Part shown: piece after piece, positions 37,410 to 51,576 of the stretch
Layout: each line of letters opens with the position of its first letter
Position numbering within the stretch: the first letter of the stretch is position 1
Source of the DNA: an uncultured cyanobacterium
GTDB lineage: Bacteria > Cyanobacteriota > Cyanobacteriia > Phormidesmidales > Phormidesmidaceae
DNA: 64,000 bases
Direction: 5' to 3'
Assembly: GCA_963793265.1 (NCBI GenBank)
Contig: CAWBZI010000005.1
Location: forward strand, 64,001 to 128,000
Translations under genes and position numbers: made by a program
The notes under the pieces: generated by a model
What the model was told of the DNA's origin: nothing
The model's database searches: none
Seen by the model: the letters and a program-made list of their open reading frames with translations, nothing else

Positions 37410-38823
37410 CGTCTTGAGCGACTGTCCAGCTTGAGCGCCAGGCATCTTCTGCTTGAGCAGTTTCTAGCGATCGCTGTGTCTTCTTATATCGCATTCCTAG
37501 CTTTTTTAGCTCGCCCAGCTTCTGCCGCAAACGCCCCCGCCACGCTGACACCGTAGGATCGGTAAATTCTACCTCGCTCAACCGCAGGCTAATCGCCGCT
37601 AGCTCAGGCAGGGCGTCTATCTCAATAATTTTCGGCGGCATGGCAGGTCTTGGCCGCTGTGCCCCAGATCCGCGCCCCGAAGACCGCCTGCGCCCTGAAT
37701 GTCGATCTGTAGAGCCGCCACCTGAGCGACCCGATCGTCGATTCGATGGACTGTCTAGCGATCGCCTACGCCCTTCTCGATCAGAGCGCCGAGAGTCTCG
37801 ATTTCGAACCTCCCGATAGTCCTCATCACCATCCTCCTCGTCTTCCATCATAGACTCGCCGTGCATCACTCGCACCGACATCCTCACCACATTAGGCACC
37901 GAATTAATCGGCTCGCCCATGCCCCGAGAATCAGAAGCCGCTGCCATCAGCGCCTTAGGAAAAGTTGGCATCACGTCCGCTTTTTGCAGCAGCTCGTTAG
38001 ACGCGTCCGAAACGGTTTTAAACACATCTCGAATCGCTTTCTCCAACAGCATTTGCTGCTTCATCAAATGAATTGGCGTTAGCGGGCCGTCTTCTTTATC
38101 ACCAACTTCCTTATCGCTACCACTGGGCAGTCCCTTGATCTGCATTGAGCGGCGAGCCAACCCCTCCAAAGCCGCCAGCAAATCTTCTTCTTCATCTAAA
38201 GACAAGCGCTGATCAGCCGGAGGCACTTCCATCTCAAAATCTATATCGTCATCGTCTGAATCATCATCTTCGAAGCCGCTATCTGAGTCACTATCTGAGT
38301 CACTATCCAAGTCTTGCTGAAGCATCGTTTCAAACTCTTCAGCAAATACTTCGTCGCCATACTCATTGCGCCTGCGACCGTCAGGCGATCGCTCTTCAGC
38401 TTCAAACCCATCCAAATCATCCTCATAATCATCCGCAGGCAATCCAGACTCAGACGATCCCCCGCTGCCTGTTCTGGCCTCTAGCAGCTGCTGTAAAAAG
38501 GCCAAGCCATCATGGTTTTGAGGGCGGCGGCTCATGACGATGGAACGTTCGCGCTGTTCGGTGAGCTGCTCGTAAATTTGGGTTGCGATCGCCTGCAAAG
38601 ACTGCTGAAGCTGATTGCGTTTGTCCCAGGAGAGCGCCAAAAACTTATCAGGATATGCCTGCGTGCACAAATGATAGGCCGCCTGCACCAACTGCCGCTT
38701 ACTGGCCTCGCTCAGCGCCTTCAAATAGCCCTCATACAAAGGCTCCAAAGTATCTGCCATCGCCTCAGTTTTCTGCTGAAGCAAAGATAGTTCCTGTTCA
38801 ATTTGGCCACTCGCCTTAACCAT
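37396..38823 (-). CDS. Conserved hypothetical protein with long acidic and Arg/Ser-rich insertions
   Basis: AAYHLCTQAYP..FL and EAEDAW-like conserved ends; overlaps the recG start. Confidence 0.75.
   Translation of the reverse strand: MVKASGQIEQELSLLQQKTEAMADTLEPLYEGYLKALSEASKRQLVQAAYHLCTQAYPDKFLALSWDKRNQLQQSLQAIATQIYEQLTEQRERSIVMSRRPQNHDGLAFLQQLLEARTGSGGSSESGLPADDYEDDLDGFEAEERSPDGRRRNEYGDEVFAEEFETMLQQDLDSDSDSDSDSGFEDDDSDDDDIDFEMEVPPADQRLSLDEEEDLLAALEGLARRSMQIKGLPSGSDKEVGDKEDGPLTPIHLMKQQMLLEKAIRDVFKTVSDASNELLQKADVMPTFPKALMAAASDSRGMGEPINSVPNVVRMSVRVMHGESMMEDEEDGDEDYREVRNRDSRRSDREGRRRSLDSPSNRRSGRSGGGSTDRHSGRRRSSGRGSGAQRPRPAMPPKIIEIDALPELAAISLRLSEVEFTDPTVSAWRGRLRQKLGELKKLGMRYKKTQRSLETAQAEDAWRSSWTVAQDDDDD
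38279..38307. repeat. 12-bp tandem repeat CTATCTGAGTCA x2.4, encoding a DS run
   Basis: Read directly from the sequence. Confidence 0.8.
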
Positions 38824-38927
38824 TCTCTATCGCCCAAGACTCATACAATACATAGCCAGCACCCACAGCGCCCATCTTTTACACGAAACCCATACCTCAA
38901 CAGTAACGAGTTTGCCTGCGACCTAAC

Positions 38928-38964
38928 AAAAATCGGGCTCTTCACATCATCAGAAGAACCCGAA
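38928..38964 (-). terminator. Rho-independent terminator after tsf
   Basis: CGGGCTCTTC...GAAGAACCCG with an A-run on + (U-tract on -). Confidence 0.65.
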
Positions 38965-39014
38965 TCTCAAAAAGTCGCGAAAAAATCACAACTTTCAATG
39001 TCTGCTTCTAAGGT

Positions 39015-39677
39015 CTACTTCTTTTGACCCGTCTGAGCAGCCACTTCATCGGCAAAGTTAACCTCTTCTTTCTCAATGCCCTCACCCAAAATAAAGCGAG
39101 AGAATCGACGAATTTGAATGTTCTCACCAAGCTTAGAAACTGCCTGCTTTACCAGCTCTTCTACCGTGATGTTCTGGTCTTTAATAAAAGGCTGATCAAT
39201 CAAAGACAGCTCTTTGAGCCGCTTATCAATCCGACCTTGAACAATCTTCTCTTTGATGTTCTCAGGCTTTTTGCCCAAGTCATCACGGCCCATTTCAATA
39301 GACTTCTCACGCTCCACCATATCTGAAGGAATATCGTCAACTCTGACATATTCCACATTAGGAGAAGCCGCAATTTGCATTGCCACATCCTGCGCCAAAG
39401 ACTTAAATTCTTCGCGGCGGGCTACAAAGTCAGTCTCACAGTTAATCTCAACGAGCACACCTACGCGGCCACCCGTATGAATGTAGCTGTGCACCAGCCC
39501 TTCTGAAGCCACTCGGCTTTCTTTTTTAGCGGCTGAGGTAATGCCCTTCTGACGCAGCCATTCATTGGCCTTACTCACGTCGCCGTCACTTTCTATCAGC
39601 GCCTTTTTGCAATCCATCATGCCTGCGCCCGTCTGATCGCGCAGTTCTTTCACCTGCTTCGCAGAAATGTCTGCCAT
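39015..39677 (-). CDS. tsf: Elongation factor Ts
   Basis: [26 protein letters not shown]; start at MADIS. Confidence 0.98.
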
Positions 39678-39851
39678 CTTTCCGTATCGTCCTAATAGTT
39701 TTACGTCTTTACATGTAGTTGTAAGGGTTAGCGCAGCCAACCGTCAGTGCTTAAGCATACTTTGTCAGCAGCGCAGCGGCACAATATCGCCGCAAGCACT
39801 GCTGTGTAGATGCCTATAGCAAGCACTGACAATCATCAGCTAGCGTATCGT

Positions 39852-40679
39852 TCAGGCTTCGGCTGTAGCAGCAGGAGCAGCTTCTTCAGACTTAGCACCA
39901 ATCTCAGCGCCTTCGTCGTCATAATCTGCGCCATCGTAGCCATCGTAAATATCGGCTGCGTGAGCGGCATTCTTACCGCTACCGCTGTCCGTGCCGCCGC
40001 CACGAGAGCCTTCGTAAATGGCATCAGCCAAGCGACCCACCACCAGCTTAATCGCGCGAATCGCGTCGTCGTTCGCTGGAATGGGCACATCTACAACATC
40101 TGGATCGCAGTTGGTATCTAGCAAAGAAATGATCGGCAGACCGAGCTTCTGACATTCCTGTACAGCGTTGTACTCACGGCGTACGTCTACAATGATGACC
40201 GCATCAGGAATACGGCGCATGGTTTTGATACCGCCCAGATACTTCTGAAGCTTGTCTAGCTCGCGACGTAGCTGTGCGCCTTCTTTTTTAGGTCGCATAG
40301 CTAGCGCACCCGACGACTCCATCCGCTCAAGCTCCTTCAGGCGCTCAACGCGGGTTTTAATCGTCGTCCAGTTGGTGAGCATTCCGCCCAACCAGCGCTG
40401 GTTTACGTAGTAAGAACCGCAGCGATCGGCTTCATCGGCAACGATGCCCGCTGCCTGACGCTTAGTGCCGACAAAAAGGAAGCTTTTGCCGCTTTCTGCT
40501 GATTTGCGGACGTACTGATACGCCTCTTCAAGCAGAGTAGCGGTCTGAACGAGATCAATAATATGGACACCGTTGCGGGAAGTGAAGATGTATTCGTCCA
40601 TCTTCGGGTTCCAGCGTCGTGTTTGGTGACCAAAGTGCACGCCTGATTCAAGTAGATCAGACAGGGTTACTGCTGGCAT
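39852..40679 (-). CDS. rpsB: 30S ribosomal protein S2
   Basis: [28 protein letters not shown]. Confidence 0.99.
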
Positions 40680-40693
40680 ATGAAATTTCTCCT

Positions 40694-40799
40694 TCCGGGT
40701 TAAACCTCCATCTGGCTGCATTCAAGTAGCACGAGAACCTAAAACCTTAGTCTCAAGTCTCTATTTCGCTACCCAAACACCCGAAAATCCAGATGTGTG
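40694..40799 (-). promoter_or_regulatory. rpsB leader (t44/S2 autoregulatory RNA)
   Basis: Minus strand CACACATCTGG...GGGTG...CCAGATGGAGG.TTAACCC: closing stem plus GGGU/ACCC pseudoknot elements. Confidence 0.8.
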
Positions 40800-41005
40800 A
40801 ATTTAATAGAACTGTACTAGGGTAGCACGCCTGTGAGGACTTGCGAGCAAGGCTTTTAAGAGGCTGGCAATTTTATTTTTCCAGATTTTTTCCAGGCGCT
40901 TCGACAGGGAGTTTTACACAGGCCCGTGGGAAAACTTCATTTATATAACGGCCACTTCATCAAAAGGGGCCAGCGACCACTATTCCACGATATTCCTGGG
41001 GCTCC

Positions 41006-42340
41006 ATGAGCAATATGCAATCGCCGCCATCTCCACCACCAAGACCCTCAGCACCCCCTCCACCACCGAGATCCGGCGGCGCAGCTCCCAGACCTGGCGC
41101 AGTTCCTCCCCCACCACCCGGAGCACGACCTGGCGTTCCTGCTCCCCCACCCGGCGCTAGACCAGCGGCTCCGCCTGCATCAGGGCCACAGACAGAGATG
41201 GTTAAGGCAGCACCTGCGGCTCGCGCAGCGGGGCATCGTGCGGCGGCTCCGCCCCCAATGCCAGGCGGGGGTGCCACTAGCGGCCCTTCACTCGAGAAGA
41301 TTATTCGTAAGGCTTTTGACGAAGGCTACTCGGATATTCACGTCGGCGTCGGTGAGGTACCACGCTACCGCAACCGAGGGGAGATTAACGCGACGGACTT
41401 TCCAGTCACGACCGAAGCAGATTTTGAGTCTTGGCTAAAAGAGATTTTGACGCCAGAAGATATTCAGCAGTTCAAAGACACGCTGGATTTTGACGGGGCG
41501 GCGCAGTACGAGTTCTCGCGCGTACGGATCAATATTTTCGTTAGTCTCAACGGCCCTTGCATGGTGATGCGACTGATCCCAGTTGAGATTTTGACGATGC
41601 AGCAGCTAAATCTGCCAGCGGTGATCAAAGACATGTGCCACTATCACAAGGGTTTGATCTTGGTGACGGGGCCTACGGGCTCGGGTAAGTCAACAACGAT
41701 GGCGGCGATGATTGACTACATCAATAAGGAAATGCCGAAGCACATTATTACCATCGAAGACCCGGTGGAATTTGTGCACCAGAGTCGTAAGTCGCTGATT
41801 AAGCAGCGAGAAGTGGGGGTGCATACTAAAAAGTTTAGTAATGCGCTAAAGGCTTCTTTGCGAGAAGATCCTGACATTATTCTAGTTGGAGAAATGCGGG
41901 ATAAGGAGACGATTGAGACGGCGCTGAAGGCTGCTCAAACGGGTCACCTTGTATTTGGAACGCTGCACACTAATAGCGCGGTGAAGACGGTTGAGCGGAT
42001 CTTGGGGATGTATGAGCCAGAGCAGCAGGCACCGGTTAGAGTTGCGATCGCTGAATCTCTCATTGGTGTTGTGGCCCAGGGCCTGTGCCGCACCACCGAC
42101 GGCAAACGCGCTGCCTTCCACGAAATTTTGATCAACACCGACGCGATTAAAGACTACATTTTGCGCGGTCAGCTTGATGAAGTGGAAGCGATTTTGCCGA
42201 ACTGTACCTTCGACGGCATGTGTACGATGAACCAGTCAATATATGGGCTGTACGAAGCCGGTCGGATTACCGAAGAGGTTGCCTTAGAGCAGTCGCCTAA
42301 GCAGAACGAGATGGCGCAGATGCTACGCGGTCGCGTTTAG
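41006..42340 (+). CDS. pilT: Type IV pilus retraction ATPase, PilT2-type with Pro-rich N-terminus
   Basis: GPTGSGKS, TIEDPVE, LREDPD, GTLHT; about 90-aa Pro/Ala-rich extension. Confidence 0.95.
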   Translation: MSNMQSPPSPPPRPSAPPPPPRSGGAAPRPGAVPPPPPGARPGVPAPPPGARPAAPPASGPQTEMVKAAPAARAAGHRAAAPPPMPGGGATSGPSLEKIIRKAFDEGYSDIHVGVGEVPRYRNRGEINATDFPVTTEADFESWLKEILTPEDIQQFKDTLDFDGAAQYEFSRVRINIFVSLNGPCMVMRLIPVEILTMQQLNLPAVIKDMCHYHKGLILVTGPTGSGKSTTMAAMIDYINKEMPKHIITIEDPVEFVHQSRKSLIKQREVGVHTKKFSNALKASLREDPDIILVGEMRDKETIETALKAAQTGHLVFGTLHTNSAVKTVERILGMYEPEQQAPVRVAIAESLIGVVAQGLCRTTDGKRAAFHEILINTDAIKDYILRGQLDEVEAILPNCTFDGMCTMNQSIYGLYEAGRITEEVALEQSPKQNEMAQMLRGRV

Positions 42341-42372
42341 CTTTAGTCAAGCATCCTTTTTCCTAAAAAAGC

Positions 42373-42402
42373 AAAAGCTCTCTGAAACTCAGAGAGCTTT
42401 TT
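42373..42402. terminator. Bidirectional terminator
   Basis: AAAAGCTCTCTGA-aac-TCAGAGAGCTTTT. Confidence 0.85.
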
Positions 42403-42406
42403 GAGT

Positions 42407-42694
42407 TTAAACCAGCTCTAGCTTTCTTAATTCTTCATGCGTAGATACCTGTTCTGCTTGCCAGAGATCGTAGTTCATTTGCATTTGTAGCCAGCTTTGC
42501 GGAGAGCGCCCCAGCACCTTAGACAACCGAATTGCCATATCCGGCGTTATTCTATTCTGCTCCGCAATCAATCTAGAAAATGTTGAAGGCGATACGTTCA
42601 GATGTGCAGCAACTTGTCTAGCACTAATATCAAACGGCTCTATATAAGTACGGCGAATAAACTTACCAGGATGGGGAGGGTTAAATTGTCTCAT
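42407..42694 (-). CDS. higA: HigA-family antitoxin
   Basis: PPHPG, HTH, ITPDMAIRL, WLQMQMNYDLW. Confidence 0.92.
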   Translation of the reverse strand: MRQFNPPHPGKFIRRTYIEPFDISARQVAAHLNVSPSTFSRLIAEQNRITPDMAIRLSKVLGRSPQSWLQMQMNYDLWQAEQVSTHEELRKLELV

Positions 42695-42778
42695 TCAGTG
42701 ATAATCCTCATAGTCTAAAACGTATATATCACCCTCTCTAAATTCAAAAGTTAGCCTCCAGTTGCCGCTGATCTTGAT
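42695..42778 (-). pseudogene. higB: 3' remnant of HigB toxin gene
   Basis: IKISGNWRLTFEFREGDIYVLDYEDYH*; stop abuts the higA ATG; no HigB N-terminus upstream. Confidence 0.85.
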
Positions 42779-43079
42779 TGGCGATCGCAGTATCGATCTC
42801 CTCTGAATAATCACGATAGTAGGCCCAAGCCGCATCTAAATCGGATTGGGTAAGGCCAGGGTAGTTGCGCAAAAGCTCATCGCTATCTGCACCTTGCTGA
42901 CGGAACGAAACTAATGTCCAAACAGGGATGCGCGTATTACGAATTCGAGCATCTCCCCCACATACCCCCGGTGTTTTCTGTATGGGCTTATCTTGAAGCT
43001 CACTCAGCAGAAGCGTACTTTCTTCCTCACTAAGAGATTCAATGACCTGTACAAGAGAATCAACCAACTGAGTGTTCAT
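42744..43079 (-). CDS. DUF433 domain protein (putative antitoxin)
   Basis: PGVCGGDARIRNTRIPVW...YPGL...AAWAYY. Confidence 0.9.
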   Translation of the reverse strand: MNTQLVDSLVQVIESLSEEESTLLLSELQDKPIQKTPGVCGGDARIRNTRIPVWTLVSFRQQGADSDELLRNYPGLTQSDLDAAWAYYRDYSEEIDTAIANQDQRQLEANF

Positions 43080-43182
43080 GAATGTTACGAGATTGGCTAA
43101 TGATTCGCCTCTACATACTGATTATTATAGGGTTTGCTTTCCCTTAAAGTTAGGTGTCGCGCATAGAAATGTGCTACCGAAG

Positions 43183-44145
43183 CTAAGCCGTTTTTTCGAG
43201 CTGCGATCGCCATTCTTTTACGACTGTTTCTAGTTGAGCAGGTAGCCAGGCATCGTACCTTTCATAAACAGGAAGTCGCCGTTGCAATACCCCTGACTCG
43301 GTTTGTAAGATTTCAGTCATATCTTTTTCGGAGCGGTGGACGTAATTAGGATTTACTTCGTCAATAGGGCCGATGCCGCCAAGGTCACGAGCACCTGCGG
43401 CAATACAGTTTATAAGGGCATTGTCTGAGCGGATGAGATTGGGTGGAATTTGGATGGTGATATCGGCAGGGAGAATTTTGTGGGCGAGTTGAACAGCTTG
43501 AAGTAGCGTTTCACCGTGGCAGGGCGATCGCACCTCCATTTGAGTCTCACCCGGCTGATGCGGCTGCAAAATCACTTCTTGAATATGCTGATATTGAGCG
43601 TGAGACTGGGCGATCGCCGCCAAACTATCCACCCAATCATCAACAGTCTCCCCCAATCCCAACAGCATCCCCGTCGTAAACGGAACCTTCAGCTTCCCGG
43701 CAAACTCAAGCTGCTGCAATCGCACTTCAGGCAGCTTGCTGGGCGCACGGACATGAACCGTCTTCAATAGCTCCGGCGTCACCTGCTCTACCATCAACCC
43801 CATCGACACATTCACCTGCTTGAGCTGAGCCATTTCCTCATAGCTCAGCGGCCCCACATTCGTATGCGGCAAAAACCCCTTTTCTAGCGCCAGTTCGCAG
43901 AGCTGATAAATCCGCTGAAACCAGGCTGAGCGCCTTGCACTCCGCGGATGCACTTCGCCGCTGAGAATCAAAATTTCAATAACTTCATCGCGCGGTAGGC
44001 CGTCTAGAATTTTACTAGCAGCGGCCAGGCTCATCCACTCATCTTTACCAGGATCGCGGCGAAAGTTGCAGTAGGTACAGCGGTTAAAGCATTCGTAGGT
44101 CGGCACGAGGGTGTAGGCCGGAGAGTAGGTGACGGTGCGATTCAT
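43183..44145 (-). CDS. cofG: FO synthase subunit CofG (radical SAM)
   Basis: TYSPAYTLVPTYECFNRCTYCNF, PHTN, PFTTG, QIPPNL, DLGG. Confidence 0.92.
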   Translation of the reverse strand: MNRTVTYSPAYTLVPTYECFNRCTYCNFRRDPGKDEWMSLAAASKILDGLPRDEVIEILILSGEVHPRSARRSAWFQRIYQLCELALEKGFLPHTNVGPLSYEEMAQLKQVNVSMGLMVEQVTPELLKTVHVRAPSKLPEVRLQQLEFAGKLKVPFTTGMLLGLGETVDDWVDSLAAIAQSHAQYQHIQEVILQPHQPGETQMEVRSPCHGETLLQAVQLAHKILPADITIQIPPNLIRSDNALINCIAAGARDLGGIGPIDEVNPNYVHRSEKDMTEILQTESGVLQRRLPVYERYDAWLPAQLETVVKEWRSQLEKTA

Positions 44146-44252
44146 ATCTATTATTGTAGTATCGTTATCAACCGGCTCAACTAGGGCAGAATAGTAGTGG
44201 TAAGATAGCTCTGGCTTCTCTTTTGTTAACACTCCATGGCAGGGCAAATCTG

Positions 44253-45615
44253 TTGAAAACCACCGTTATTATTGTCCGTCACGGTCAGAGCACTTCTAAT
44301 ATTAGCCGCATTATCTCCGGGCATCACGACAATGCGACGCTCACTGAGCAGGTCAGCAGCAGGCGCACAGAGTTGGCGAAACGCTAGAGGGCCTGGCCTT
44401 AGATGCGGTGTATGCAAGTCCCACTGACAAGGGCTCAGCAGACCTGTCGAGATTATCGTTGAGACGATGAGCGCCAAAGGGGCTACTTTGCCTGAGATTC
44501 AAAGCACCGAAGAGATTAAAGAAATCAATCTGCCGCTGTGGGAGTCTAAATCCTTTGCAGACGTTGAAGCAGACTATCCGATTGAGTACACGGCCTGGCG
44601 GCAAGATCCGAACGCCTTCAAAATGGCGGTTCCTAATGCTGACGGGACCACCACTGACTTTTACCCGGTGCGCGAAATTTGGGAGCGGGCTGCTAAGTTT
44701 TGGCCTCGCCTGCTTAAAAAACACGCTGGGCAAACGGTTTTACTTGTTGCTCATAGCGCTATCAATCGCGCCCTTGTCGGCACAGCGATTGGTCTTGGCC
44801 CCGACAAGCTCAACAGCATGGGCCAGCAGAACTGTGCGATTAATGTGCTCAACTTTTTGGGCGAATTTGAAGGCGGTGCGCAGCTAGAGTCTTTGAACCT
44901 AACGAGTCATTTGGGCGATCCGATTCCGCCCCGTCGCAGCCGGTTTAAGGGGCCGCGTTTGCTGCTAGTGCGTCATGGCGAAACAAACTGGAACCGCGAT
45001 GGGCGCTTTCAAGGACAGATTGATATTCCGCTCAATGAGAATGGGCACAAGCAGGCGGCACAGGCAGGTGAGTTTTTGAAAGCGGTAGAGATTGACGAGG
45101 CAGTGACTTCATCTATGCTGCGGCCTAAAGAAACCGCAGAAGGCATTTTGAAGCATCATGCCGACGTGGCGCTGAAGACTACGGAGGATTTGTGGGAGAT
45201 TAGCCATGGGGAATGGGAAGGCAAGCTAGAGTCGGAGATTGAGGCGGGCTATCCGGGCCTTTTGGCTGAGTGGCAGAGCAAGCCGGAAGCTGTGCAGATG
45301 CCGGGCGGCGAGAATTTGGATGATGTGTATGGCAGAGCGAAGAAGGGGTGGGGGGATATTGTGGCGGCCTATAGCGGCTCGGATACGCCTAAGACCGTGC
45401 TGGTAGTGGCTCATGACGCGATTAACAAGGCGATTTTGTGTCAGGTGTTGGGGCTAGGGCCGGAGAAGTTCTGGCAGTTTAAGCAGGGCAACGGCGCGGT
45501 GAGCGTGATTGACTATATGGGCGGGCCAGATAGTGCGGCGATGCTGAGCGCGGCGAATATTACGACGCACTTATCGGGCAGCATTTTTGATAAAACGGCT
45601 GCTGGGGCGCTGTAG
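44253..45615 (+). CDS. Tandem-domain histidine phosphatase (PGM family) with three 5' frameshifts
   Basis: TTG at 44253 gives MKTTVIIVRHGQS; continuity needs shifts near 44351, 44421 and 44448; second domain has RHGETNWN. Confidence 0.85.
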
Positions 45616-45621
45616 GCTCAT

Positions 45622-47014
45622 ATGTCAGGATCTATGGCAGACTCTACGGCAACCCCTGCGGCCAGTTTGATTAAACAGGTCTATGTGATTGACTTGGCAT
45701 CGGCTGAAGATGCTTACGCTTTGGGCCGTGAGCATATTGGTGATGTACTGATTGAAGATGGGCGGATTGCAGCGATCGCCCCTCACCTCACCGATCTACC
45801 TGAAGGCACTGAAGTCATAGACGGGCGCGGTCAATTCTTGGGGCCAGGACTGGTTGATCTGTATAGCCAAAGTGGAGAGCCCGGTCATGAAGCGCGCGAG
45901 ACGTATGAGTCTTTGAGAAGCGCGGCAGCAGCAGGTGGATTTACACGGGTAGGGCTGCTGCCGAACACGCAGCCTGCTGTAGATAATGTGAGCGCGATCG
46001 CCGCCATCCAACAGCGCAACCAACAGCGCAACGCCGCCAGTCAAACCCAGCTCTTACCTTGGGCTACCATTACCCTCAACGGAGAAGGCGAGCAGCTTAC
46101 CGAACTAGCCGAGCTAGCCGTAGCCGGGGCAATTGGTTTTACAGACAGTGAGCCGCTGGCCAATCTGGTCTTACTGAGGCGGTTGCTGGAATATGCTCAG
46201 CCGCTGCAAAAGCCGATTGCGCTATGGCCTTACGATCACCAGCTAGCAGGCAAAGGCGTGGCCAGAGAAGGGGTAGATTCTTTGCGTTTGGGGCTTGAGG
46301 GGGTGAGTGCGATCGCTGAAACCACAGCCCTTTCTACCATCCTAGAATGCGTAGCCGAATTTCCGGCGCTCGTGCACATTATGCGCGTCTCCACCGCTCG
46401 CAGCGTAGACCTTTTGCGTCAGGCTAAAGCCCAAGAACTTCCAGTTAGCGCCAGCGTGCCTTGGCACCATCTCATTTTTGATACGTGCGATCTCGATCGG
46501 TACGACCCGCAGCTAAGGCACGATCCGCCTCTAGGAAAACCCGCCGATCGGCAGGCGCTGATTGAGGGAGTTGCCGATGGAACGATTGATGCGATCGCTA
46601 TCGATCACAGCCCCTACACATACGAAGAAAAAACCGTTGCCTTCGACAAAGCCCCACCCGGCGCGATTGGCTTAGAACTTGCCTTACCCGTACTGTGGCA
46701 AACCTTCGTGGCCGACTATCACCAAGCTTCTGATCAATCCAAGGCTTCGGAGACAGTCTTCGGAACAGTCTCTGGGACACTGGAGCCCTGAACAGCTATG
46801 GCAAACCCTCAGCCACAACCCAGCCCAATGCTTAGGACTCACGCCTGCTCGTCTAAAAGTTGGAGAACCGGCTGAACTAACCCTGTTTGACCCTCGCATT
46901 GGCTGGCAGGTGAAGCCTGAAAATCTTCATTCACTCGCCATCAATACGCCCTGGCAAAACCAGCCACTCAAAGGAAGAGTCATCGCAACTTGGACGAATT
47001 ATCACAAGCGCTAG
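45622..47014 (+). CDS. Dihydroorotase-like protein (PyrC'-type, HxH lost), frameshift near 46752
   Basis: DLYSQSGEPG in place of DxHxH; PPL, IDHSP; C-terminus NPA..LGL...NTPW lies in the next frame. Confidence 0.8.
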
Positions 47015-47580
47015 TAGTCCAGTCCACCCACTCGACTAGGGGGCCAAAAGCGCACTGCGGCCTTACCGATAATGCTCTCGCCCGGCAAAAAGCCCCATAC
47101 GTGACTATCCAAGCTGCCGTTGCGATTATCACCAAGCACTAAATATTGATCTTCAGGCACCACTTCAGGCCCCCAAGTGTAGTCAGGCGGTGCTTTGGTA
47201 TAGCCTTCTCGAATGGCCCTATCGTTAATAATCACCTTGCCGTCTTTGATCTCTACCGTCTCTCCGGGTAGGCCAATCACGCGCTTGAGATAGGCATCAT
47301 TCGTTGCTGCCCCCGAAATCACCAGCGCCTCTTCGGGAGCCTGAAACACAATAATGTCACCCCGCTGAGGTGACTGGAATAAATAGCTTATCTTTTCAAT
47401 CACTAGCCGGTCATTAATCTGTACCGTAGGCTCCATCGAGCCAGTGGGCACCACCCGAGCTTCAGCCACAAACTGCCGCATTCCTAGCGCGAGCACAATG
47501 CTCAGGCCCATCGTCTGTAAAACCTCAACCGCAAAACTAGGCTGCTTTTCCGTCTGCTTTCCTGTCTGCTTCTTGGGCAT
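47011..47580 (-). CDS. lepB: Signal peptidase I
   Basis: GSMEPT, YLKRVIG, GDNRNGSLDS. Confidence 0.95.
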   Translation of the reverse strand: MPKKQTGKQTEKQPSFAVEVLQTMGLSIVLALGMRQFVAEARVVPTGSMEPTVQINDRLVIEKISYLFQSPQRGDIIVFQAPEEALVISGAATNDAYLKRVIGLPGETVEIKDGKVIINDRAIREGYTKAPPDYTWGPEVVPEDQYLVLGDNRNGSLDSHVWGFLPGESIIGKAAVRFWPPSRVGGLDY

Positions 47581-47698
47581 GGCAATTCTAAGCTTAACTG
47601 CATGGGCCTAGCCTATCGTTACGATAGCCTTAGCGTACAGCGCACTTGTGACAATCTCTCCTAATCGCTAAAAGCGGCTTTTAAGCGCTAGCTTGTGA

Positions 47699-48250
47699 TT
47701 AATCTAAGCCACCGATTCTAGTCGGGGGCCAAAAGCGCACGACCGCGCGGCCAATAATGCTTTCTTCTGGCAAAAAGCCCCATACGTGACCGTCAGAGCT
47801 GCTATTGCGATTGTCCCCAAGTACTAAGTACTGACCTTCAGGCACCACTTCTGGGCCCCACTGGTAATCAGGAGGAGCCTGAATATAGTTCTCTTGAAGC
47901 ACTTTATCGTCAATAAATACTTTGCCGTCTTTGACCTGAACCTTTTCACCCGGCAGACCAATTACCCGCTTAATATAGGCATCGTGGCTGGTTGAGCCCA
48001 CAGCGTCTAAGGCTCTTTGGGGTGCTTGAAAAACGATGATGTCGCTGCGCTTGGGCGGATTGAAGCGATAGCTGATTTTCTCGACGACGAGGCGATCGTC
48101 GATCTGCAGCGTGGGCTCCATAGAGCCGGAGGGAATAAACCTAGCTTCAGCGACAAACTGGCGGATACCAAGTGCTAATACGATGCTGAGGCCAATGGTT
48201 TGTAGCCCTTCGATCCACGGATTTTGTTGCTTGTCAGACACGGCTTTCAA
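47699..48250 (-). CDS. lepB: Signal peptidase I (tandem paralogue)
   Basis: GSMEPT, YIKRVIG, GDNRNSSSD. Confidence 0.95.
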   Translation of the reverse strand: MKAVSDKQQNPWIEGLQTIGLSIVLALGIRQFVAEARFIPSGSMEPTLQIDDRLVVEKISYRFNPPKRSDIIVFQAPQRALDAVGSTSHDAYIKRVIGLPGEKVQVKDGKVFIDDKVLQENYIQAPPDYQWGPEVVPEGQYLVLGDNRNSSSDGHVWGFLPEESIIGRAVVRFWPPTRIGGLD

Positions 48251-48382
48251 AGGTTCCCGAAGGAGGTCAAGAGGGATGGGTGAGCGGTCAAAGAATGTAA
48301 ACCAGACGGTGGCGTGTAGCTTAGCGCGTACTAAGATTACGATGTCTTTGGTAGCTTAATGGCTAATGGGCTCAATCATAAT

Positions 48383-49714
48383 ATGACAGATTCTTCGCAA
48401 ACCGTTCCGCCAGTGATTATTCAAGGGGCCGAGGTGCTGCTGCCCAGCGGGGAGATTGCGGCCAGAGAAGTGGCGATCGCAGACGGTAAAATCACAGCCG
48501 TCGGTACGGGTCTAGAGGTGACAGCAGGCACTCGTACTATCGACGGCGCAGGGTTGACCTTGCTGCCGGGGGTGATCGATCCGCAGGTTCATTTTCGCGA
48601 TCCGGGGCTAGAGCATAAGGAGGATTTGTTCACAGCAAGCCGCGCCTGTGCCAGAGGCGGGGTGACCTCTTTTTTAGAGATGCCCAATACGCTGCCGCTC
48701 ACAACAACTCAAGCTATTTTGACAGATAAGTTAGCCATTGCGGCCTCTAAAAGCCTAGTGAACTACGGCTTTTTTATTGGTGCAACTGCCGAGAACCTGG
48801 ATGACTTACGAACGGCAAATCCCACCTGTGGCATCAAGATTTTCATGGGTTCTGCTCACGGCCCTTTATCAGTCGATACGCCAGAGACAATTGAGCCGAT
48901 TTTTGCAGTGGGCGATCGCCTCATCGCCGTCCATGCCGAAGATCAGGCGCGCATTATGGAGCGCCGTAAGCTATTTGCAGGTGAAACTGATCCGGCCACG
49001 CACACCAAAGTGCAAGACAATGAAACCGCTTTGAACGCAACCAAGCTGGCGCTCAGCTTTTCTAAAAAGTACAAAAGGCGGCTGCATATTTTGCATATGT
49101 CTACCGGCGACGAGGCAGAGCTGCTCAGACGCGATAAGCCGAGCTGGGTAACGGCTGAAGTGACCCCGCAGCATTTGCTATTAGACGTGAGCGCCTATGA
49201 GAAGATTGGCACTTTGGCGCAAATGAACCCGCCGCTGAAGTATCCGCGCGATCGCGAAATTCTCTGGCAGGCATTGCTAGACGGCACCATCGACTTTATC
49301 GCTACCGATCATGCCCCGCACACCCTCGAAGAAAAAGCCAAAGGCTATCCAAACGCCCCGTCAGGAATGCCCGGTGTAGAAACATCTTTGCCGCTGATGC
49401 TGACGCAGGCCAAGGAAAACCGCTGCACGGTCGCTCAGGTTTCTAACTGGATGTCTACAGCGGTGGCGAAGGCATACAACATTCCGAATAAAGGCGTCAT
49501 TGCCCCTGGCTACGATGCCGATGTTGTTTTAGTCGATCTATCGACCTATCGCCCGGTACTGCGCGAGGAGCTGCAAACAAAGTGCGGCTGGAGCCCGTTT
49601 GAAGGGTGGCGGCTGACGGGTTGGCCGGTAGTTACGTTAGTCGGCGGGCAGGTCGTGTACAATCGCGGCGAAATTGACACAGAGGTGCGCGGGCAGGCGC
49701 TACGGTTCGGTTGA
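48383..49714 (+). CDS. pyrC: Dihydroorotase (multifunctional-complex type)
   Basis: DPQVHFRDPG, EMPNT, KIFMG, VHAE, MNPPL, TDHAPH. Confidence 0.88.
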   Translation: MTDSSQTVPPVIIQGAEVLLPSGEIAAREVAIADGKITAVGTGLEVTAGTRTIDGAGLTLLPGVIDPQVHFRDPGLEHKEDLFTASRACARGGVTSFLEMPNTLPLTTTQAILTDKLAIAASKSLVNYGFFIGATAENLDDLRTANPTCGIKIFMGSAHGPLSVDTPETIEPIFAVGDRLIAVHAEDQARIMERRKLFAGETDPATHTKVQDNETALNATKLALSFSKKYKRRLHILHMSTGDEAELLRRDKPSWVTAEVTPQHLLLDVSAYEKIGTLAQMNPPLKYPRDREILWQALLDGTIDFIATDHAPHTLEEKAKGYPNAPSGMPGVETSLPLMLTQAKENRCTVAQVSNWMSTAVAKAYNIPNKGVIAPGYDADVVLVDLSTYRPVLREELQTKCGWSPFEGWRLTGWPVVTLVGGQVVYNRGEIDTEVRGQALRFG

Positions 49715-49728
49715 TCCGCGTGGCAGGG

Positions 49729-51576
49729 CTAAAACGGCGTGTATCGGATAGAAAAGTAGATGCCGCTGTCTTGTAGGCTATCGCTGCTGGTGTCGATATC
49801 GACCAGCGGAATGCCCCAGTCGAGACGCGCGGTCAAGTCGTCGCCCTGCTGCCAGAGTAAGCCAAAGCCAGTGCCGACTAATACGTTGTTGCCGCCAGGC
49901 GTGTTGCTATGATTCCAGGCTGCACCAGCATCTAAAAAGGGCGTGATTTGAACAATGCTTTCTTCAGAGAAGCGGATGATTGGAAAGCGAGCTTCGGCAG
50001 AGAGCAATGCACCATTATCTCGCAGTAGCGCGTCTTGACGGTAGCCGCGTACGGTTTGCTGACCGCCTAAGCCGAACTGTTCTGATGACACCAAACTATC
50101 TGCTGCGAGCTGCACATCACTGCGGAGGAAGAAGAGGGAATCGTCGCCAAGCAGTCTGACCCACTGGCCTTGACCGCGCCAGGAGAAAAACTGAGAGTCG
50201 GGAGCTTCATCGTCGTTATTCGGATTGAGTAGCGTACTACCTTCGGCGGTGGTGGCGTTAAGAATATCAAGGCCGACGTTGAACTGCGAGCGGGCGGCGA
50301 GTACCTGCTGCTGCGATCGCTGTGTCCAAGCCTGCGAAAACCTGAGCGCACTCACCCGAGTTTCACCGTCAAGATCTGCGCCCGGCGAGAGCGGCGTTGG
50401 CCCAATATCATCAATGCCCAAGCTCGTCTGGTTCTCTTTATGCGAGAGCGCTAGGCCCAAAGTTAGCTCTTGTGTGGGCGTTTCAATCAGCGGATGCGTG
50501 ACGCCTACCTCGTAGTAAAAAGCATCAGAGCTGATATCGAGCACGTCGAACGTATCGTCAATAACGCGGCTCTCGGAGATACCGCCGCTGAGGTTGACAC
50601 GGGTGTTGTACGGGCTCACGGGCACTGAATAGCTCAGGTCTAGGCTGTTGCTGCCATCAGTATTGGAGTAGCCCACGAAGGCGCGATCGCCAATGCCAAA
50701 CAGGTTGCCTTCGGTGACATCAATCCGGCGACGTACGCTGCCAATGTTGGGCGATCGCCCATTATCAAGACCCACCGTCACCGCAAAAGAATCTGCCTCA
50801 GTCACCTCCACGCGCAAAATGCTAGTACCGGGCCTTACCCCCGCCTGCAAATCCGCAGAGACAGTTTCAATCAGCGGATCAATTTGCAATCGCTGCAAGC
50901 CTTCTAATAATTTATCAGCATTGATGGGTGGCCTAGCTGCCAGCCCTAACCGGCTGCGAATATAGCCGGGCCTCAGCCGATTGGTGCCGACAATCTCAAT
51001 TTCCTCAATCACGCCCTCAATCACCTGCACGGTGACCATGCCGTTTTCGAGCGTTTGCGGCGGAATGAACGCGCCCGATGTTAAAAAGCCTTCATCAACA
51101 TAGCGCTGAGTAACTGCCGAACGGAGCGCTAGCAGCTCGTTGAAAGTCACGGGTCTGTTGGTGTACTCAGCAAATAGCTCGGCAAAGTCTTCAGTTGTAA
51201 AAACCGTGCTTCCGGCAAGCTGAATACCGTTAACGACAAACGTTTCATCGCCGTTACCCATCGCACCATCTGGCGTATTGGAACCTGCTGGATCGTTGAG
51301 CAAGTCGTCAACGGGTGGCAGCTTGGGCAGCGGCTGGGAAGGCAGCGGGCGATCTGTCGGGAATTCAGGGGTGACATCAGCGGGCGGGAGCGGTTCAGCA
51401 GGGATTTGATCGCTCGGTACGGAAGGCGGTAGCGTGACTTGAGCAATCGTGGCTGGATCTGGCAAGGGCTCAGCTAATGGCTCGGCGTGAGCCGCCCCAT
51501 CAGGACGCAAAGTGGGAGAAAACCACACCGTAGCGCAACAGCTCAATAGAAGCAGGGAAGAGTGACGAAACGGCAT
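49729..51576 (-). CDS. ShlB/FhaC/HecB (TpsB/Omp85) outer-membrane protein
   Basis: Signal-like N-terminus, POTRA domains, VRGY motif, C-terminal Phe. Confidence 0.9.
   Translation of the reverse strand: MPFRHSSLLLLSCCATVWFSPTLRPDGAAHAEPLAEPLPDPATIAQVTLPPSVPSDQIPAEPLPPADVTPEFPTDRPLPSQPLPKLPPVDDLLNDPAGSNTPDGAMGNGDETFVVNGIQLAGSTVFTTEDFAELFAEYTNRPVTFNELLALRSAVTQRYVDEGFLTSGAFIPPQTLENGMVTVQVIEGVIEEIEIVGTNRLRPGYIRSRLGLAARPPINADKLLEGLQRLQIDPLIETVSADLQAGVRPGTSILRVEVTEADSFAVTVGLDNGRSPNIGSVRRRIDVTEGNLFGIGDRAFVGYSNTDGSNSLDLSYSVPVSPYNTRVNLSGGISESRVIDDTFDVLDISSDAFYYEVGVTHPLIETPTQELTLGLALSHKENQTSLGIDDIGPTPLSPGADLDGETRVSALRFSQAWTQRSQQQVLAARSQFNVGLDILNATTAEGSTLLNPNNDDEAPDSQFFSWRGQGQWVRLLGDDSLFFLRSDVQLAADSLVSSEQFGLGGQQTVRGYRQDALLRDNGALLSAEARFPIIRFSEESIVQITPFLDAGAAWNHSNTPGGNNVLVGTGFGLLWQQGDDLTARLDWGIPLVDIDTSSDSLQDSGIYFSIRYTPF

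What the first reader, a model, noticed from the sequence alone, without database searches (positions are those of the whole stretch)
43441..43680. Strand composition flips from G-rich to C-rich at HIP1 sites: candidate footprint of a HIP1-anchored repair/resection system
Seen (hand counts, + strand). cofG (minus-strand gene; HIP1 at 43524 and 43610): 43441-43500 has 25 G/5 C, 43621-43680 has 4 G/26 C. Plus-strand gene, HIP1 at 33842: 33781-33840 has 21 G/7 C, 33851-33900 has 7 G/21 C. Plus-strand gene, HIP1 at 3890: 3841-3889 has 15 G/6 C, 3901-3960 has 10 G/27 C. recG (minus; HIP1 at 36250 and 36292): 36181-36240 has 19 G/10 C, 36301-36360 has 8 G/24 C. The same look occurs around 1431, 23187, 24201, 45772 and 50751. 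The flip happens inside single ORFs and in the same physical direction for both gene orientations, so gene strand does not explain it. Established: HIP1 is methylated and its function is unresolved; methyl-directed repair has been proposed. Inference: nicking at HIP1 with 5'->3' excision would leave the opposite strand single-stranded 5' of its own HIP1, where C->T and A->G deamination gives this G/T-rich 5' flank on both strands. Caveats: the examples were picked by eye, the C-rich tract at 21300-22030 has no adjacent upstream HIP1, and I do not know whether this pattern is already published.
Basis: partly seen in the sequence, partly recalled or inferred. Interest (0 to 1): 0.8.

Follow-up and report, generated by a model that had tools for sequence, protein, structure and literature searches.

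The report
Polar G/C skew flip at HIP1
In this cyanobacterium, silent codon positions are G-rich just before and C-rich just after nearly every copy of the abundant palindrome GCGATCGC (HIP1), which looks like the footprint of a one-directional DNA process starting at this long-unexplained motif.

Summary
Over all 6,884 HIP1 sites, GC skew at fourfold-degenerate sites on the strand read 5'->3' into HIP1 is +0.60 (3-10 nt), +0.39 (21-40), +0.22 (61-100) and +0.09 (151-200), mirrored on the other side.

- **Specificity:** only the full octamer and GTGATCGC, its likely 5-methylcytosine deamination product, show it. CGATCG, GATC, 118 other palindromic octamers, and the same octamer in non-cyanobacteria do not.
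- **Link to HIP1:** at orthologous positions the skew tracks HIP1 presence.
- **Distribution:** strong in this genus, weaker in most other cyanobacteria sampled, nil in two HIP1-rich genomes.

G replaces C while T stays flat. A two-parameter "G favoured, C disfavoured" fixation bias fits about 600-1,000 log-likelihood units better within 60 nt.

Two points stay open. The replication-scale skew here has the same signature. Non-coding flanks show only a quarter to a third of the effect.

I found no description in the searched literature. Earlier notes of this scan reported the same pattern on other DNA.

The parts
43524..43531 (.). HIP1 site (GCGATCGC) inside cofG, left member of the pair at the reported locus
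   Evidence: exact match; 60-nt flanks have G/C 23/10 on the left and 12/17 on the right.
43610..43617 (.). HIP1 site inside cofG, right member of the pair
   Evidence: left flank 17/13, right flank 5/28 (skew -0.70).
43441..43500 (+). G-rich, C-poor flank on the 5' side of the HIP1 pair (+ strand)
   Evidence: 25 G, 5 C, 13 A, 17 T
43621..43680 (+). C-rich, G-poor flank on the 3' side of the HIP1 pair (+ strand); equivalently the G-rich 5' flank on the - strand
   Evidence: 4 G, 26 C, 20 A, 10 T
43183..44145 (-). cofG (FO synthase subunit), the gene inside which the flip occurs
   Evidence: Radical_SAM; NF004884 CofG, 387.7 bits, cut-off 209
36250..36299 (.). two HIP1 sites (36250-36257, 36292-36299) inside recG with the same flip
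   Evidence: recG identity (RecG_wedge, DEAD, Helicase_C; ORF 34806-37445, - strand).
3890..3897 (.). HIP1 site in the 597-aa ORF next to nurA, with the same flip
   Evidence: left 19/9, right 10/29.
33842..33849 (.). HIP1 site with the same flip; lies only in a short open frame (80 aa on +, 89 aa on -), not in a confidently called gene
   Evidence: left 20/7, right 9/25. for the open frames.
1..64000 (.). the whole window: 100 HIP1 sites forming a sawtooth of local GC skew
   Evidence: 100 sites against 2.1 expected; left-minus-right skew >0 at 92 of 100, and the sawtooth crosses zero at mid-interval genome-wide.

Best explanation
HIP1 anchors a strand-symmetric but polar DNA transaction. The most likely form is a nick or cut at (methylated) HIP1 followed by 5'->3' removal and resynthesis of the strand lying 3' of the site. 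This reaches tens to a few hundred nucleotides. On each side, the strand lying 5' of HIP1 is therefore repeatedly the intact template.

Because one strand is always the template, the outcome of mismatch correction or gene conversion near HIP1 is biased. On the template (5'-flank) strand G is favoured and C disfavoured, each by about 0.5 log-odds next to the site. A and T are neutral.

One concrete version, which is inference: if the template base always wins, the recalled MutS recognition hierarchy (G.T > A.C, G.G >> C.C, purine.purine > pyrimidine.pyrimidine) gives G>A, T>C, G>C and A>C on the template strand. That is the observed ordering.

Shown: the footprint, its specificity, its polarity, its link to HIP1 presence, and its base spectrum. 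Inferred: the nick, the direction of excision, and the fixation-bias mechanism.
For: - **Size and location.** Folded fourfold-site GC skew is +0.60, +0.47, +0.39, +0.30, +0.22, +0.14, +0.09 and +0.06 for 3-10, 11-20, 21-40, 41-60, 61-100, 101-150, 151-200 and 201-300 nt. Codon positions 1 and 2 give only +0.19 and +0.14 next to the site and about 0.03 or less beyond 60 nt.
- **Specificity.** HIP1 ranks first of 119 palindromic octamers. Non-HIP1 CGATCG (n=530), GATC (n=9,482) and 11 of 12 one-mismatch variants show little or nothing. GTGATCGC (n=387) carries the full skew on both sides. The octamer in 38 non-cyanobacterial loci gives -0.026+-0.021.
- **Link to HIP1.** At orthologous positions in four same-genus genomes (about 74% DNA identity), HIP1 present only in the relative (n=130) gives +0.093 there and +0.027 in G000. 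HIP1 present only in G000 (n=98) gives +0.121 in G000 and +0.022 in the relative. Shared sites (n=184) give +0.107 and +0.155.
- **Spectrum.** At fourfold sites G goes 0.27->0.44 and C 0.27->0.14, while A (0.196->0.185) and T (0.266->0.241) barely move. Twofold sites move as well: C/(C+T) 0.48->0.29 and G/(A+G) 0.53->0.65. All 8 fourfold codon families shift the same way.
- **Model fit.** The two-parameter fixation-bias model lies 20-70 log-likelihood units from the saturated model. Deamination lies 74-1,059 units away and richer single-strand-damage models 20-350.
- **Symmetry.** The amplitude is equal upstream and downstream in genes. It is the same on all 7 contigs, 0.33-0.39. It adds in log-odds to the replication-scale skew, which has the same signature.
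- **No hairpin.** Mirror complementarity equals the composition expectation.
- **Genes and literature.** MutS (2 matches) and MutL are encoded. Elhai proposed HIP1-directed mismatch repair (PMC4390886, passages). Kamoku and Nielsen found that a homologous HIP1 site raises transformation 7-fold, and more than 100-fold when methylated (bioRxiv 10.1101/2024.09.10.611283, abstract and passages).
Against: - No nick, nuclease or excision tract has been observed; the mechanism is inferred from composition alone.
- Equilibrium composition cannot formally separate fixation bias from a sufficiently complex mutation bias. In one of six flank and distance classes (downstream, 61-100 nt) the 3-parameter mutational model fits slightly better (22 against 32).
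- Strictly non-coding DNA shows only +0.08 to +0.10 at 11-60 nt against +0.30 to +0.47 at fourfold sites.
- For the same 238 HIP1 sites at gene boundaries, the non-coding flank gives +0.077 and the fourfold flank +0.234. Non-coding sites in nine close contig pairs from other cyanobacteria diverge at 0.58 of the fourfold rate. Constraint therefore explains only part of this deficit.
- The effect is absent in two HIP1-rich genomes (G017 -0.03+-0.02, G020 +0.03+-0.03). Both still encode NurA and MutL.
- No MutH and no Vsr (0 of 16 genomes) was found.
- The MutS-hierarchy version predicts A>T on the template strand, but T is equal to or slightly above A (TA skew about +0.03 to +0.06).
Confidence: 0.45

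Rival explanations
1. Nicking at HIP1 and 5'->3' excision leave the 5'-flank strand single-stranded. Damage there then drives the skew as a mutation bias: C->T and A->G deamination, or more broadly C>N and A>N changes with translesion synthesis.
For: - The geometry fits the sign of the skew on both sides.
- The same geometry and a C>N/A>N strand asymmetry, including C>G, are described beside resected human meiotic breaks (Hinch 2023, PMC7615360, passages).
- This genome's replication-scale skew has the same signature: G +0.26/+0.30, C -0.26/-0.28, T 0, A about -0.1. That kind of skew is usually attributed to single-strand exposure (recalled).
- Adding C>G to the model cuts the misfit about 3- to 5-fold.
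Against: - Pure deamination predicts T 0.36 and A 0.14 at fourfold sites, against 0.241 and 0.185 observed. Its excess over the saturated model is 600-1,050 log-likelihood units within 60 nt.
- The 3-4-parameter damage models remain 84-350 units off in the two nearest bins, against 20-70 for the fixation bias.
- Those models need C>G raised about 4-5-fold over a baseline transversion. Yet G<->C changes are only 13 of 193, 15 of 175, 8 of 84 and 5 of 71 recent differences in runs X1-X4 over a 20-kb stretch holding 33 HIP1 sites.
- A neutral mutational footprint should be at least as strong in non-coding DNA, where it is 3-4 times weaker.
Confidence: 0.17
2. Natural selection on flank composition. 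HIP1 works better when its 5' flank is G-rich and C-poor on each strand, so many weakly selected synonymous sites drift towards G. Possible reasons are loading of a single-strand-binding or recombination protein, DNA uptake, or binding of a nucleoid protein.
For: - The data fit a per-base preference model (G +0.5, C -0.5 to -0.7, A and T 0) almost to saturation.
- There is no specific flank motif, only general G-richness. GGGG, GGTG and GGTGG are 2.5-3.5 times commoner than their reverse complements.
- HIP1 sites are well conserved: 184 of 314 aligned HIP1 sites in four same-genus samples are shared with G000 despite about 74% DNA identity.
- HIP1 stimulates recombination in transformation.
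- The strength varies among lineages, as a weak selection effect would.
Against: - Selection would have to act on hundreds of sites per HIP1 out to 200 nt or more, at roughly a third of the genome. The 'third' is my inference from 6,884 sites in 5.68 Mb.
- No function of flank composition is known.
- The same signature appears at replication scale, where a mutational or repair cause is generally assumed.
- Non-coding flanks, which are free to change, show less skew, not more.
Confidence: 0.2
3. A transcript- or codon-level cause. The pattern is selected in mRNAs, with G-ending codons upstream and C-ending codons downstream of each HIP1, and is not written at the DNA level.
For: - Because HIP1 is a palindrome, the pattern has the same direction relative to transcription in genes on both strands.
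- The effect is 3-4 times stronger at synonymous codon positions than in non-coding DNA, even for the same HIP1 sites. Constraint on non-coding DNA accounts for only part of that.
Against: - The effect is still present in strictly non-coding DNA: +0.26 at 3-10 nt and +0.08 to +0.10 at 11-60 nt.
- No pairing between the flanks is seen beyond the composition expectation.
- The same base signature occurs at replication scale.
- I know of no translational or RNA mechanism that would link codon choice to a motif 100 nt away.
Confidence: 0.08
4. Reverse causality. HIP1 sites arise or survive preferentially where a G-rich to C-rich switch already exists.
For: - Sites unique to one genome have almost the same skew as shared, presumably older, sites: +0.093 and +0.121 against +0.107 and +0.155.
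- GTGATCGC carries the full skew.
Against: - G-to-C and C-to-G switches are equally common at random positions, 17.6% against 17.3%. No independent source of such switches is seen.
- At orthologous positions lacking HIP1 the skew is +0.02 to +0.03.
- The profile decays smoothly from the site and forms a sawtooth crossing zero midway between neighbouring HIP1 sites. That is what a source at each site predicts.
Confidence: 0.06

Closest known systems
Elhai's hypothetical G-5mC-directed mismatch repair at HIP1 (Life 2015, PMC4390886; passages read)
   Same: It proposes that a MutH-like nickase acts at methylated HIP1 and directs MutS/MutL excision over distances up to about 1 kb. The footprint here is specific to the full octamer rather than CGATCG or GATC, and it decays with distance.
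   Different: The model was built to explain how HIP1 copies accumulate. It predicts no flank skew, and the word 'skew' does not occur in the paper. No nickase is known. The footprint adds a polarity (one excision direction) that the model does not specify.
Dam/MutH methyl-directed mismatch repair of E. coli
   Same: A short methylated palindrome serves as the entry point for strand excision towards a mismatch. MutS and MutL are encoded here.
   Different: No MutH was found. E. coli excision is bidirectional (recalled), which would leave no polar footprint. MutL here carries a CPHGRP motif and a variant of the endonuclease-type motif (motif definitions recalled), so canonical repair is probably MutH-independent.
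Chi sites with RecBCD/AddAB, and the 'Chi-like' role proposed for HIP1 in transformation (Kamoku and Nielsen, bioRxiv 10.1101/2024.09.10.611283; abstract and passages)
   Same: A short over-represented motif turns a DNA-end-processing machine into a producer of a 3'-ended strand lying 5' of the motif. HIP1 in a homology arm raises integration 7-fold, and more than 100-fold when methylated.
   Different: Chi is asymmetric and orientation-dependent, while HIP1 is a palindrome. RecC was not found in this genome, and AddAB was not tested. No local skew sawtooth is described for Chi, as far as I recall.
Replication-associated GC skew (leading strand G>C)
   Same: The base signature is identical in this very genome: G up, C down, T flat, A slightly down. 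The two effects add in log-odds.
   Different: The scale is about 100 nt instead of megabases. The sign changes at each of thousands of HIP1 sites rather than at origin and terminus, and the polarity at HIP1 is terminus-like (+ to -).
Strand-asymmetric mutation beside resected meiotic double-strand breaks in humans (Hinch et al. 2023, PMC7615360; passages read)
   Same: An antisymmetric footprint centred on a site-specific break. The strand left single-stranded after 5'->3' resection loses C and A.
   Different: That footprint is a measured de novo mutation spectrum over 1-2 kb in a eukaryote. Here only equilibrium composition is seen, in a bacterium, over about 100-300 nt, and a fixation bias fits better than a damage spectrum.

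Membership tests
Dam/MutH-type methyl-directed mismatch repair | MutS and MutL homologues encoded | tested here: met
   MutS_V: 2 matches in G000 (281 and 120 bits). MutL_C: 1 match in G000, and 15 of 16 genomes overall.
Dam/MutH-type methyl-directed mismatch repair | MutH-family nicking endonuclease | tested here: not met
   PF02976: 0 matches in G000 (98.97% complete). The E. coli control rings.
Dam/MutH-type methyl-directed mismatch repair | Hemimethylated palindrome used as the strand signal and nick site | not testable with these tools
   No methylation or nick data were available. Indirect hint only: GTGATCGC, the presumed 5mC deamination product, is the commonest one-mismatch variant (766 against a mean of 285 genome-wide).
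Dam/MutH-type methyl-directed mismatch repair | Excision possible in both directions from the nick (recalled property of the E. coli system) | tested here: inconclusive
   The footprint has a single polarity on each side, which suggests one excision direction. Composition is only an indirect read-out.
Elhai's proposed G-5mC-directed repair at HIP1 | Effect tied to the G-flanked site (GCGATCGC), not to CGATCG or GATC alone | tested here: met
   Non-HIP1 CGATCG (n=530) and GATC (n=9,482) show no skew. Variants at position 1 lose most of it.
Elhai's proposed G-5mC-directed repair at HIP1 | Distance-dependent action over up to about 1 kb | tested here: met
   The decay runs from 0.60 to 0.06 over 300 nt. 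In long HIP1-free intervals a tail reaches about 500-800 nt.
Elhai's proposed G-5mC-directed repair at HIP1 | A nickase that recognises methylated HIP1 | not tested
   No candidate was identified. NurA (16 of 16), Vsr (0 of 16) and MutL (15 of 16) do not co-vary with amplitude.
Chi / RecBCD-AddAB hotspot | Asymmetric motif acting in one orientation | tested here: not met
   HIP1 is a perfect palindrome, and the footprint is symmetric on both strands.
Chi / RecBCD-AddAB hotspot | RecBCD or AddAB encoded | tested here: inconclusive
   RecC (PF04257): 0 matches in G000. AddAB was not searched.
Very-short-patch (Vsr) repair | Vsr endonuclease | tested here: not met
   PF03852: 0 of 16 genomes. The E. 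coli, B. subtilis and Caulobacter controls ring.
Replication-associated GC skew | Sign change only at origin and terminus, at chromosome scale | tested here: not met
   The sign changes at 92 of 100 HIP1 sites in 64 kb, and the sawtooth crosses zero midway between neighbours.
Replication-associated GC skew | G>C on one strand with the organism's characteristic base signature | tested here: met
   Log-ratios in G-rich 60-kb regions are G +0.30/+0.26, C -0.26/-0.28, T 0/+0.01 and A -0.12/-0.09. This is the same pattern as at HIP1 flanks.
Single-strand-damage asymmetry beside resected breaks (Hinch 2023 type) | Excess C>N and A>N mutations, and a raised mutation rate, on the strand exposed by 5'->3' resection | tested here: inconclusive
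   The sign of the composition shift agrees (C and A down on the 5'-flank strand). Damage models fit worse than a fixation bias in 5 of 6 classes. The polymorphism test failed because only 40 of 299 variant places were listed.

The most novel reading that the evidence does not exclude
HIP1 is the palindromic, bidirectional entry or nick site of a cyanobacterial strand-directed repair or recombination machine. Its unidirectional excision produces a polar biased gene conversion that sets the G-versus-C choice at roughly a third of all synonymous sites in this genome. The large differences in strength among lineages, from nil to 0.37, give a comparative handle for finding the unknown HIP1 nuclease.
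Probability: 0.35. Interest if true: 0.9.

Novelty: new variant of a known kind. Interest (0 to 1): 0.8.

Why it matters
HIP1 has been known for about 30 years, and its function is still described as only beginning to be elucidated (abstract of PMC13756078). A polar footprint is the first kind of evidence that says what sort of process acts at HIP1. The footprint is strand-symmetric, decays with distance, is written into silent sites, tracks the presence of the motif in orthologs, and varies among lineages. Together these point to a DNA transaction that starts at the site and runs one way along each strand.

This turns two published ideas into concrete tests. The ideas are methyl-directed mismatch repair at HIP1 (Elhai 2015) and Chi-like stimulation of recombination (Kamoku and Nielsen 2024). 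The tests are:
- map strand-specific nicks and single-stranded DNA at HIP1;
- measure conversion bias for each mismatch on each side of a HIP1;
- compare strong-skew with no-skew species.

The footprint also matters for molecular evolution. A short motif would be shaping codon usage locally across about a third of a genome. It would do so with the same base signature as replication skew, whose own cause is still debated.

Tried and rejected
- **Extended palindrome, hairpin or cruciform.** Mirror complementarity equals the composition expectation at every distance of 4 nt or more. Rejected.
- **Extended consensus.** The skew at 21-100 nt is present whatever base precedes the octamer (A +0.24, C +0.24, G +0.32, T +0.31). 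The share of GGCGATCGCC does not track amplitude across genomes.
- **Gene-boundary artefact.** The overall coding-strand GC skew is only +0.039, and the flip occurs inside genes.
- **Pure C<->G transversion bias.** Refuted, because twofold sites shift.
- **Polarising substitutions with same-genus genomes.** They are only 69-75% identical in DNA, so silent sites are saturated.
- **Polymorphism from sequencing runs.** Runs X1-X4 (2 studies) hold near-identical DNA, but the tool listed 40 of 299 variant places. The distance-resolved test could not be done.
- **Near-identical strains in metagenome contigs.** The best RecG match was 85-91% amino-acid identity. Close pairs among the fetched loci were too short: the best triple had about 11 kb and about 7 HIP1 sites, and I did not analyse it.
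- **Gene presence against amplitude across 16 genomes.** NurA 16 of 16, Vsr 0 of 16, MutL 15 of 16: no correlate.
- **GTGATCGC excess against amplitude.** rho 0.48, p 0.058, on phylogenetically non-independent genomes: not convincing. HIP1 density against amplitude gave rho 0.19.
- **G063, G069 and G030.** Too few HIP1 sites in the contigs fetched to score. G015 had 1 HIP1 in 100 kb.
- **Rows dropped.**
  - In one search, 12 near-duplicate loci were dropped.
  - In one search, HIP1 sites with a neighbour closer than 100 nt were dropped, as were overlapping loci from the same contig. Another 8 cyanobacterial loci had too few sites.
Full report
**1. The observation**

The eight hand counts are exact. 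GCGATCGC occurs 100 times in the window against 2.1 expected, and 6,884 times in the 5.68-Mb, 7-contig genome. Averaged over all sites, GC skew on the + strand is +0.25 in the 20 nt before HIP1 and -0.26 in the 20 nt after. It falls to about +-0.06-0.08 at 81-100 nt and about +-0.02-0.04 at 200 nt. TA skew is 4-5 times smaller.

HIP1 is a palindrome, so the antisymmetry of an averaged profile is forced. The finding is that the amplitude is not zero. Put differently, either strand read 5'->3' into HIP1 is G-rich, and read out of HIP1 it is C-rich.

- In the window, 92 of 100 sites have left-minus-right skew above zero. 59 sites have left>0 and right<0, and 2 show the reverse.
- Genome-wide the split is 45.9% against 4.4%, where random positions give 17.6% and 17.3%.

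**2. Controls**

- Among the 119 palindromic octamers with 40 or more copies, HIP1 is first (+0.154 at 11-50 nt). Second is ATCGCGAT (+0.094), which is what overlapping HIP1 copies contain. All others lie between -0.042 and +0.060.
- More than 300 nt from any HIP1, there is no skew at CGATCG (n=530), GATC (n=9,482), GGCC, GCGC or CGCG. There is little or none at 11 of 12 one-mismatch variants.
- The exception is GTGATCGC (n=387). It carries the full skew on both sides. It is the presumed deamination product of the 5-methylcytosine in HIP1 and the commonest variant genome-wide (766 against a mean of 285).
- Isolated HIP1 sites (n=1,633) have a stronger skew than average.
- The same octamer in 38 non-cyanobacterial loci (248 copies, 155 used) gives -0.026+-0.021 at fourfold sites and -0.002+-0.010 over all positions.

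**3. Where the skew is written**

I used crude gene calls: 4,414 ORFs, with typical codon-position composition. Of the HIP1 sites, 3,088 lie in + genes, 3,036 in - genes and 749 outside genes.

| Distance from HIP1 (nt) | Folded fourfold-site GC skew |
|---|---|
| 3-10 | +0.60 |
| 11-20 | +0.47 |
| 21-40 | +0.39 |
| 41-60 | +0.30 |
| 61-100 | +0.22 |
| 101-150 | +0.14 |
| 151-200 | +0.09 |
| 201-300 | +0.06 |

- Codon positions 1 and 2 show +0.19 and +0.14 next to the site and 0.03 or less beyond 60 nt.
- The amplitude is the same in both gene orientations, upstream and downstream of the site within genes, and on all seven contigs (0.33-0.39).
- Between neighbouring HIP1 sites the skew forms a sawtooth that crosses zero at mid-interval. 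In long intervals a tail reaches 500-800 nt.
- The left and right flanks do not pair with each other beyond the composition expectation, so this is not an extended palindrome.
- The flanks contain no dominant motif, only general G-richness.

**4. The skew follows HIP1 in evolution**

Four same-genus genomes align to G000 at about 74% identity over 59-70% of 100-kb samples. Silent sites are saturated at that distance, yet each genome shows the strong skew (+0.27 to +0.37 at 11-60 nt).

| HIP1 status at the orthologous position | n | Skew in relative | Skew in G000 |
|---|---|---|---|
| Shared | 184 | +0.107 | +0.155 |
| Only in the relative | 130 | +0.093 | +0.027 |
| Only in G000 | 98 | +0.022 | +0.121 |

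Standard errors are about 0.01. This excludes protein-context and gene-position confounders. It also shows that the skew is gained and lost with the motif.

**5. It is not universal**

In 100-kb samples of other families, the fourfold skew at 11-60 nt is as follows:

| Genome | Skew | Note |
|---|---|---|
| G017 | -0.03+-0.02 | 282 HIP1 per 100 kb |
| G020 | +0.03+-0.03 | |
| G018 | +0.06 | |
| G022 | +0.10 | |
| G019 | +0.12 | |
| G052 | +0.13 | |
| G028 | +0.13 | |
| G067 | +0.135 | |
| G049 | +0.15 | |
| G037 | +0.16 | |
| G058 | +0.27 | |

- Metagenome loci closest to G000 (RecG 78% identical or more; 15 loci, 160 HIP1) give +0.46 to +0.20 over 3-150 nt. More distant loci range from -0.07 to +0.30 per locus.
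- Of 25 scorable named cyanobacterial loci, 23 are positive. Examples are a Leptolyngbya foveolarum MAG at +0.42+-0.09 and Nostoc sp. DedVER02 at +0.38+-0.11. Lyngbya CCY1209, Pseudanabaena BL-A-41, Calothrix NIES-3974 and Nostoc PCC 9305 are near zero.
- Wherever the skew is detectable it has the same sign.

**6. Which bases change**

At fourfold sites 3-20 nt upstream of HIP1 on the coding strand, compared with sites more than 400 nt away:

| Base | Far from HIP1 | 3-20 nt upstream |
|---|---|---|
| G | 0.271 | 0.438 |
| C | 0.267 | 0.136 |
| A | 0.196 | 0.185 |
| T | 0.266 | 0.241 |

- Twofold sites move as well. C/(C+T) goes from 0.481 to 0.289, and G/(A+G) from 0.527 to 0.646.
- All eight fourfold codon families shift the same way.

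In joint fits, the excess negative log-likelihood over the saturated model within 60 nt of the site (both sides) is:

| Model | Parameters | Excess over saturated |
|---|---|---|
| C>T + A>G (deamination) | 2 | 374-1,059 |
| + C>G | 3 | 92-353 |
| + C>A | 4 | 84-312 |
| Fixation bias (G favoured about +0.5, C disfavoured about -0.35 to -0.7, A and T neutral) | 2 | 20-69 |

- A pure C>G bias fails because it leaves twofold sites unchanged.
- Only in the downstream 61-100-nt class does a mutational model (22) edge out the fixation bias (32).
- The damage models need C>G raised about 4-5-fold near HIP1. Yet G<->C changes are 13 of 193, 15 of 175, 8 of 84 and 5 of 71 recent differences between G000 and the strains in four metagenome runs.
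- Caveat: the baseline is a simple HKY-type model, and composition alone cannot exclude a complex mutation bias.

**7. Two facts that complicate the picture**

First, this genome has a replication-scale skew at fourfold sites more than 300 nt from HIP1. In 60-kb windows its 5-95% range is -0.26 to +0.19. Its signature is the same as at HIP1 flanks: G +0.26/+0.30, C -0.26/-0.28, T 0, A about -0.1 in log-ratio. The two effects add in log-odds. The 5' flank of HIP1 is therefore 'leading-strand-like'. The absence of a rise in T is not a specific argument against single-strand exposure at HIP1, because whatever causes replication skew here leaves the same mark.

Second, strictly non-coding DNA (no open frame of 240 nt or more in six frames) shows only +0.26 at 3-10 nt and +0.08 to +0.10 at 11-60 nt.
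- For the same 238 HIP1 sites at gene boundaries, the non-coding flank gives +0.077+-0.010. The fourfold flank gives +0.234+-0.020, and positions 1 and 2 give +0.064.
- In nine close contig pairs from other cyanobacteria, non-coding sites diverge at 0.58 of the fourfold rate (581/14,234 against 890/12,565). Position 1 is at 0.25 and position 2 at 0.15.
- The amplitudes at positions 1 and 2 scale with these rates. The non-coding amplitude (0.25-0.33 of fourfold) falls short of its rate. Constraint explains part of the deficit, and the rest is unexplained.

**8. Genes**

- The window encodes NurA (1317-2504), an unassigned 597-aa protein next to it, RuvA, RecG and CofG.
- NurA is in 16 of 16 genomes tested, including both no-skew genomes. 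Vsr is in 0 of 16. MutL is in 15 of 16.
- G000 has two MutS-family genes, no MutH and no RecC.
- Its MutL carries a CPHGRP motif and a variant of the endonuclease-type motif (the motif definitions are recalled from memory).
- No gene tested co-varies with amplitude.

**9. Literature**

- 'Skew' occurs 0 times in Xu et al. 2018 (PMC5861425) and in Elhai 2015 (PMC4390886). In the 2026 GBE paper (PMC13756078) it refers only to uneven sampling (term searches within the texts).
- It occurs 0 times in Kamoku and Nielsen 2024.
- Library searches:
  - 'HIP1 + cyanobacteria + GC skew' returned 2 genome papers, which I did not read.
  - 'HIP1 + cyanobacteri + strand asymmetry' returned 0.
  - 'highly iterated palindrome + skew' matched 4 papers, of which 3 were listed. 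From titles and abstracts none concerns flank skew.
- Elhai's Table 3 describes only the immediate GGCGATCGCC-type extension.
- Subscription-only papers and supplements were not searched.
- Earlier notes of this scan report the same flip in this genome and in others. My counts agree with them and were made independently.

**10. Verdict**

My best reading, at about 45%, is a HIP1-anchored, unidirectional strand-excision process acting as a fixation bias. This would be strand-directed mismatch correction or gene conversion. The identity of the machine is unknown.

Noticed in passing
window 21300-22030: A 730-nt C-rich tract (136 G, 269 C on the + strand) covers the minus-strand DRTGG-domain gene 21284-21976. 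[quoted passage not shown] No HIP1 and no GYGATCRC lies between 19519 and 22273. It is an exception to the rule and is unexplained.
   Followed up: partly
whole genome G000 (for example C4:100-300 kb, C6:1-100 kb): There is a replication-scale GC skew at fourfold sites of up to +0.35 and -0.32 per 100 kb, with a much smaller TA skew. Its base signature (G up, C down, T flat) is the same as at HIP1 flanks.
   Followed up: partly
whole genome G000: GTGATCGC/GCGATCAC, the presumed 5-methylcytosine deamination product of HIP1, is the commonest one-mismatch variant (766 against a mean of 285). It keeps the full flank skew. The excess is also seen in G007 and G011, but not in G001 or G004.
   Followed up: partly
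G017, G020, G018 (100-kb samples): The genomes with no or weak HIP1 skew have many non-HIP1 CGATCG sites (178, 233 and 220 per 100 kb, against 10-45 in the strong-skew genus). The position-1 variant ACGATCGC is also abundant there. The iterated unit in these genomes may be the hexamer.
   Followed up: no
window 1317-4474: nurA (395 aa) is followed on the same strand by a 597-aa ORF with no Pfam or NCBIfam match. The genome holds a second nurA copy on contig C6.
   Followed up: partly
window 28225-28503, 31101-31116, 37025-37062, 44149-44195: Differences between G000 and the near-identical strains in metagenome runs are clustered. The first cluster has about 19 changes in 280 nt, starts 43 nt after the HIP1 at 28182 and runs across the HIP1 at 28402. 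There is also an indel cluster in the spacer after cofG. The clustering looks like recombination imports rather than scattered point mutations.
   Followed up: no
window 47011-48121: Two adjacent signal-peptidase (Peptidase_S26) genes lie on the minus strand, of 189 aa and 140 aa. The second matches the profile only from position 33 onward.
   Followed up: no
window 4523-4879 and 9606-10205: There is a HicB-family antitoxin gene and a Uma2-family putative restriction endonuclease gene. DUF433 genes lie at 34058-34471 and 42744-43079.
   Followed up: no
G000:C4:331509-331874 (MutL, 590-aa frame): MutL carries CPHGRP at residue 559. At residues 437-448 it has a variant of the endonuclease-type motif, with E in place of the first D and I in place of A. 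Whether it is an active nickase is unknown.
   Followed up: partly
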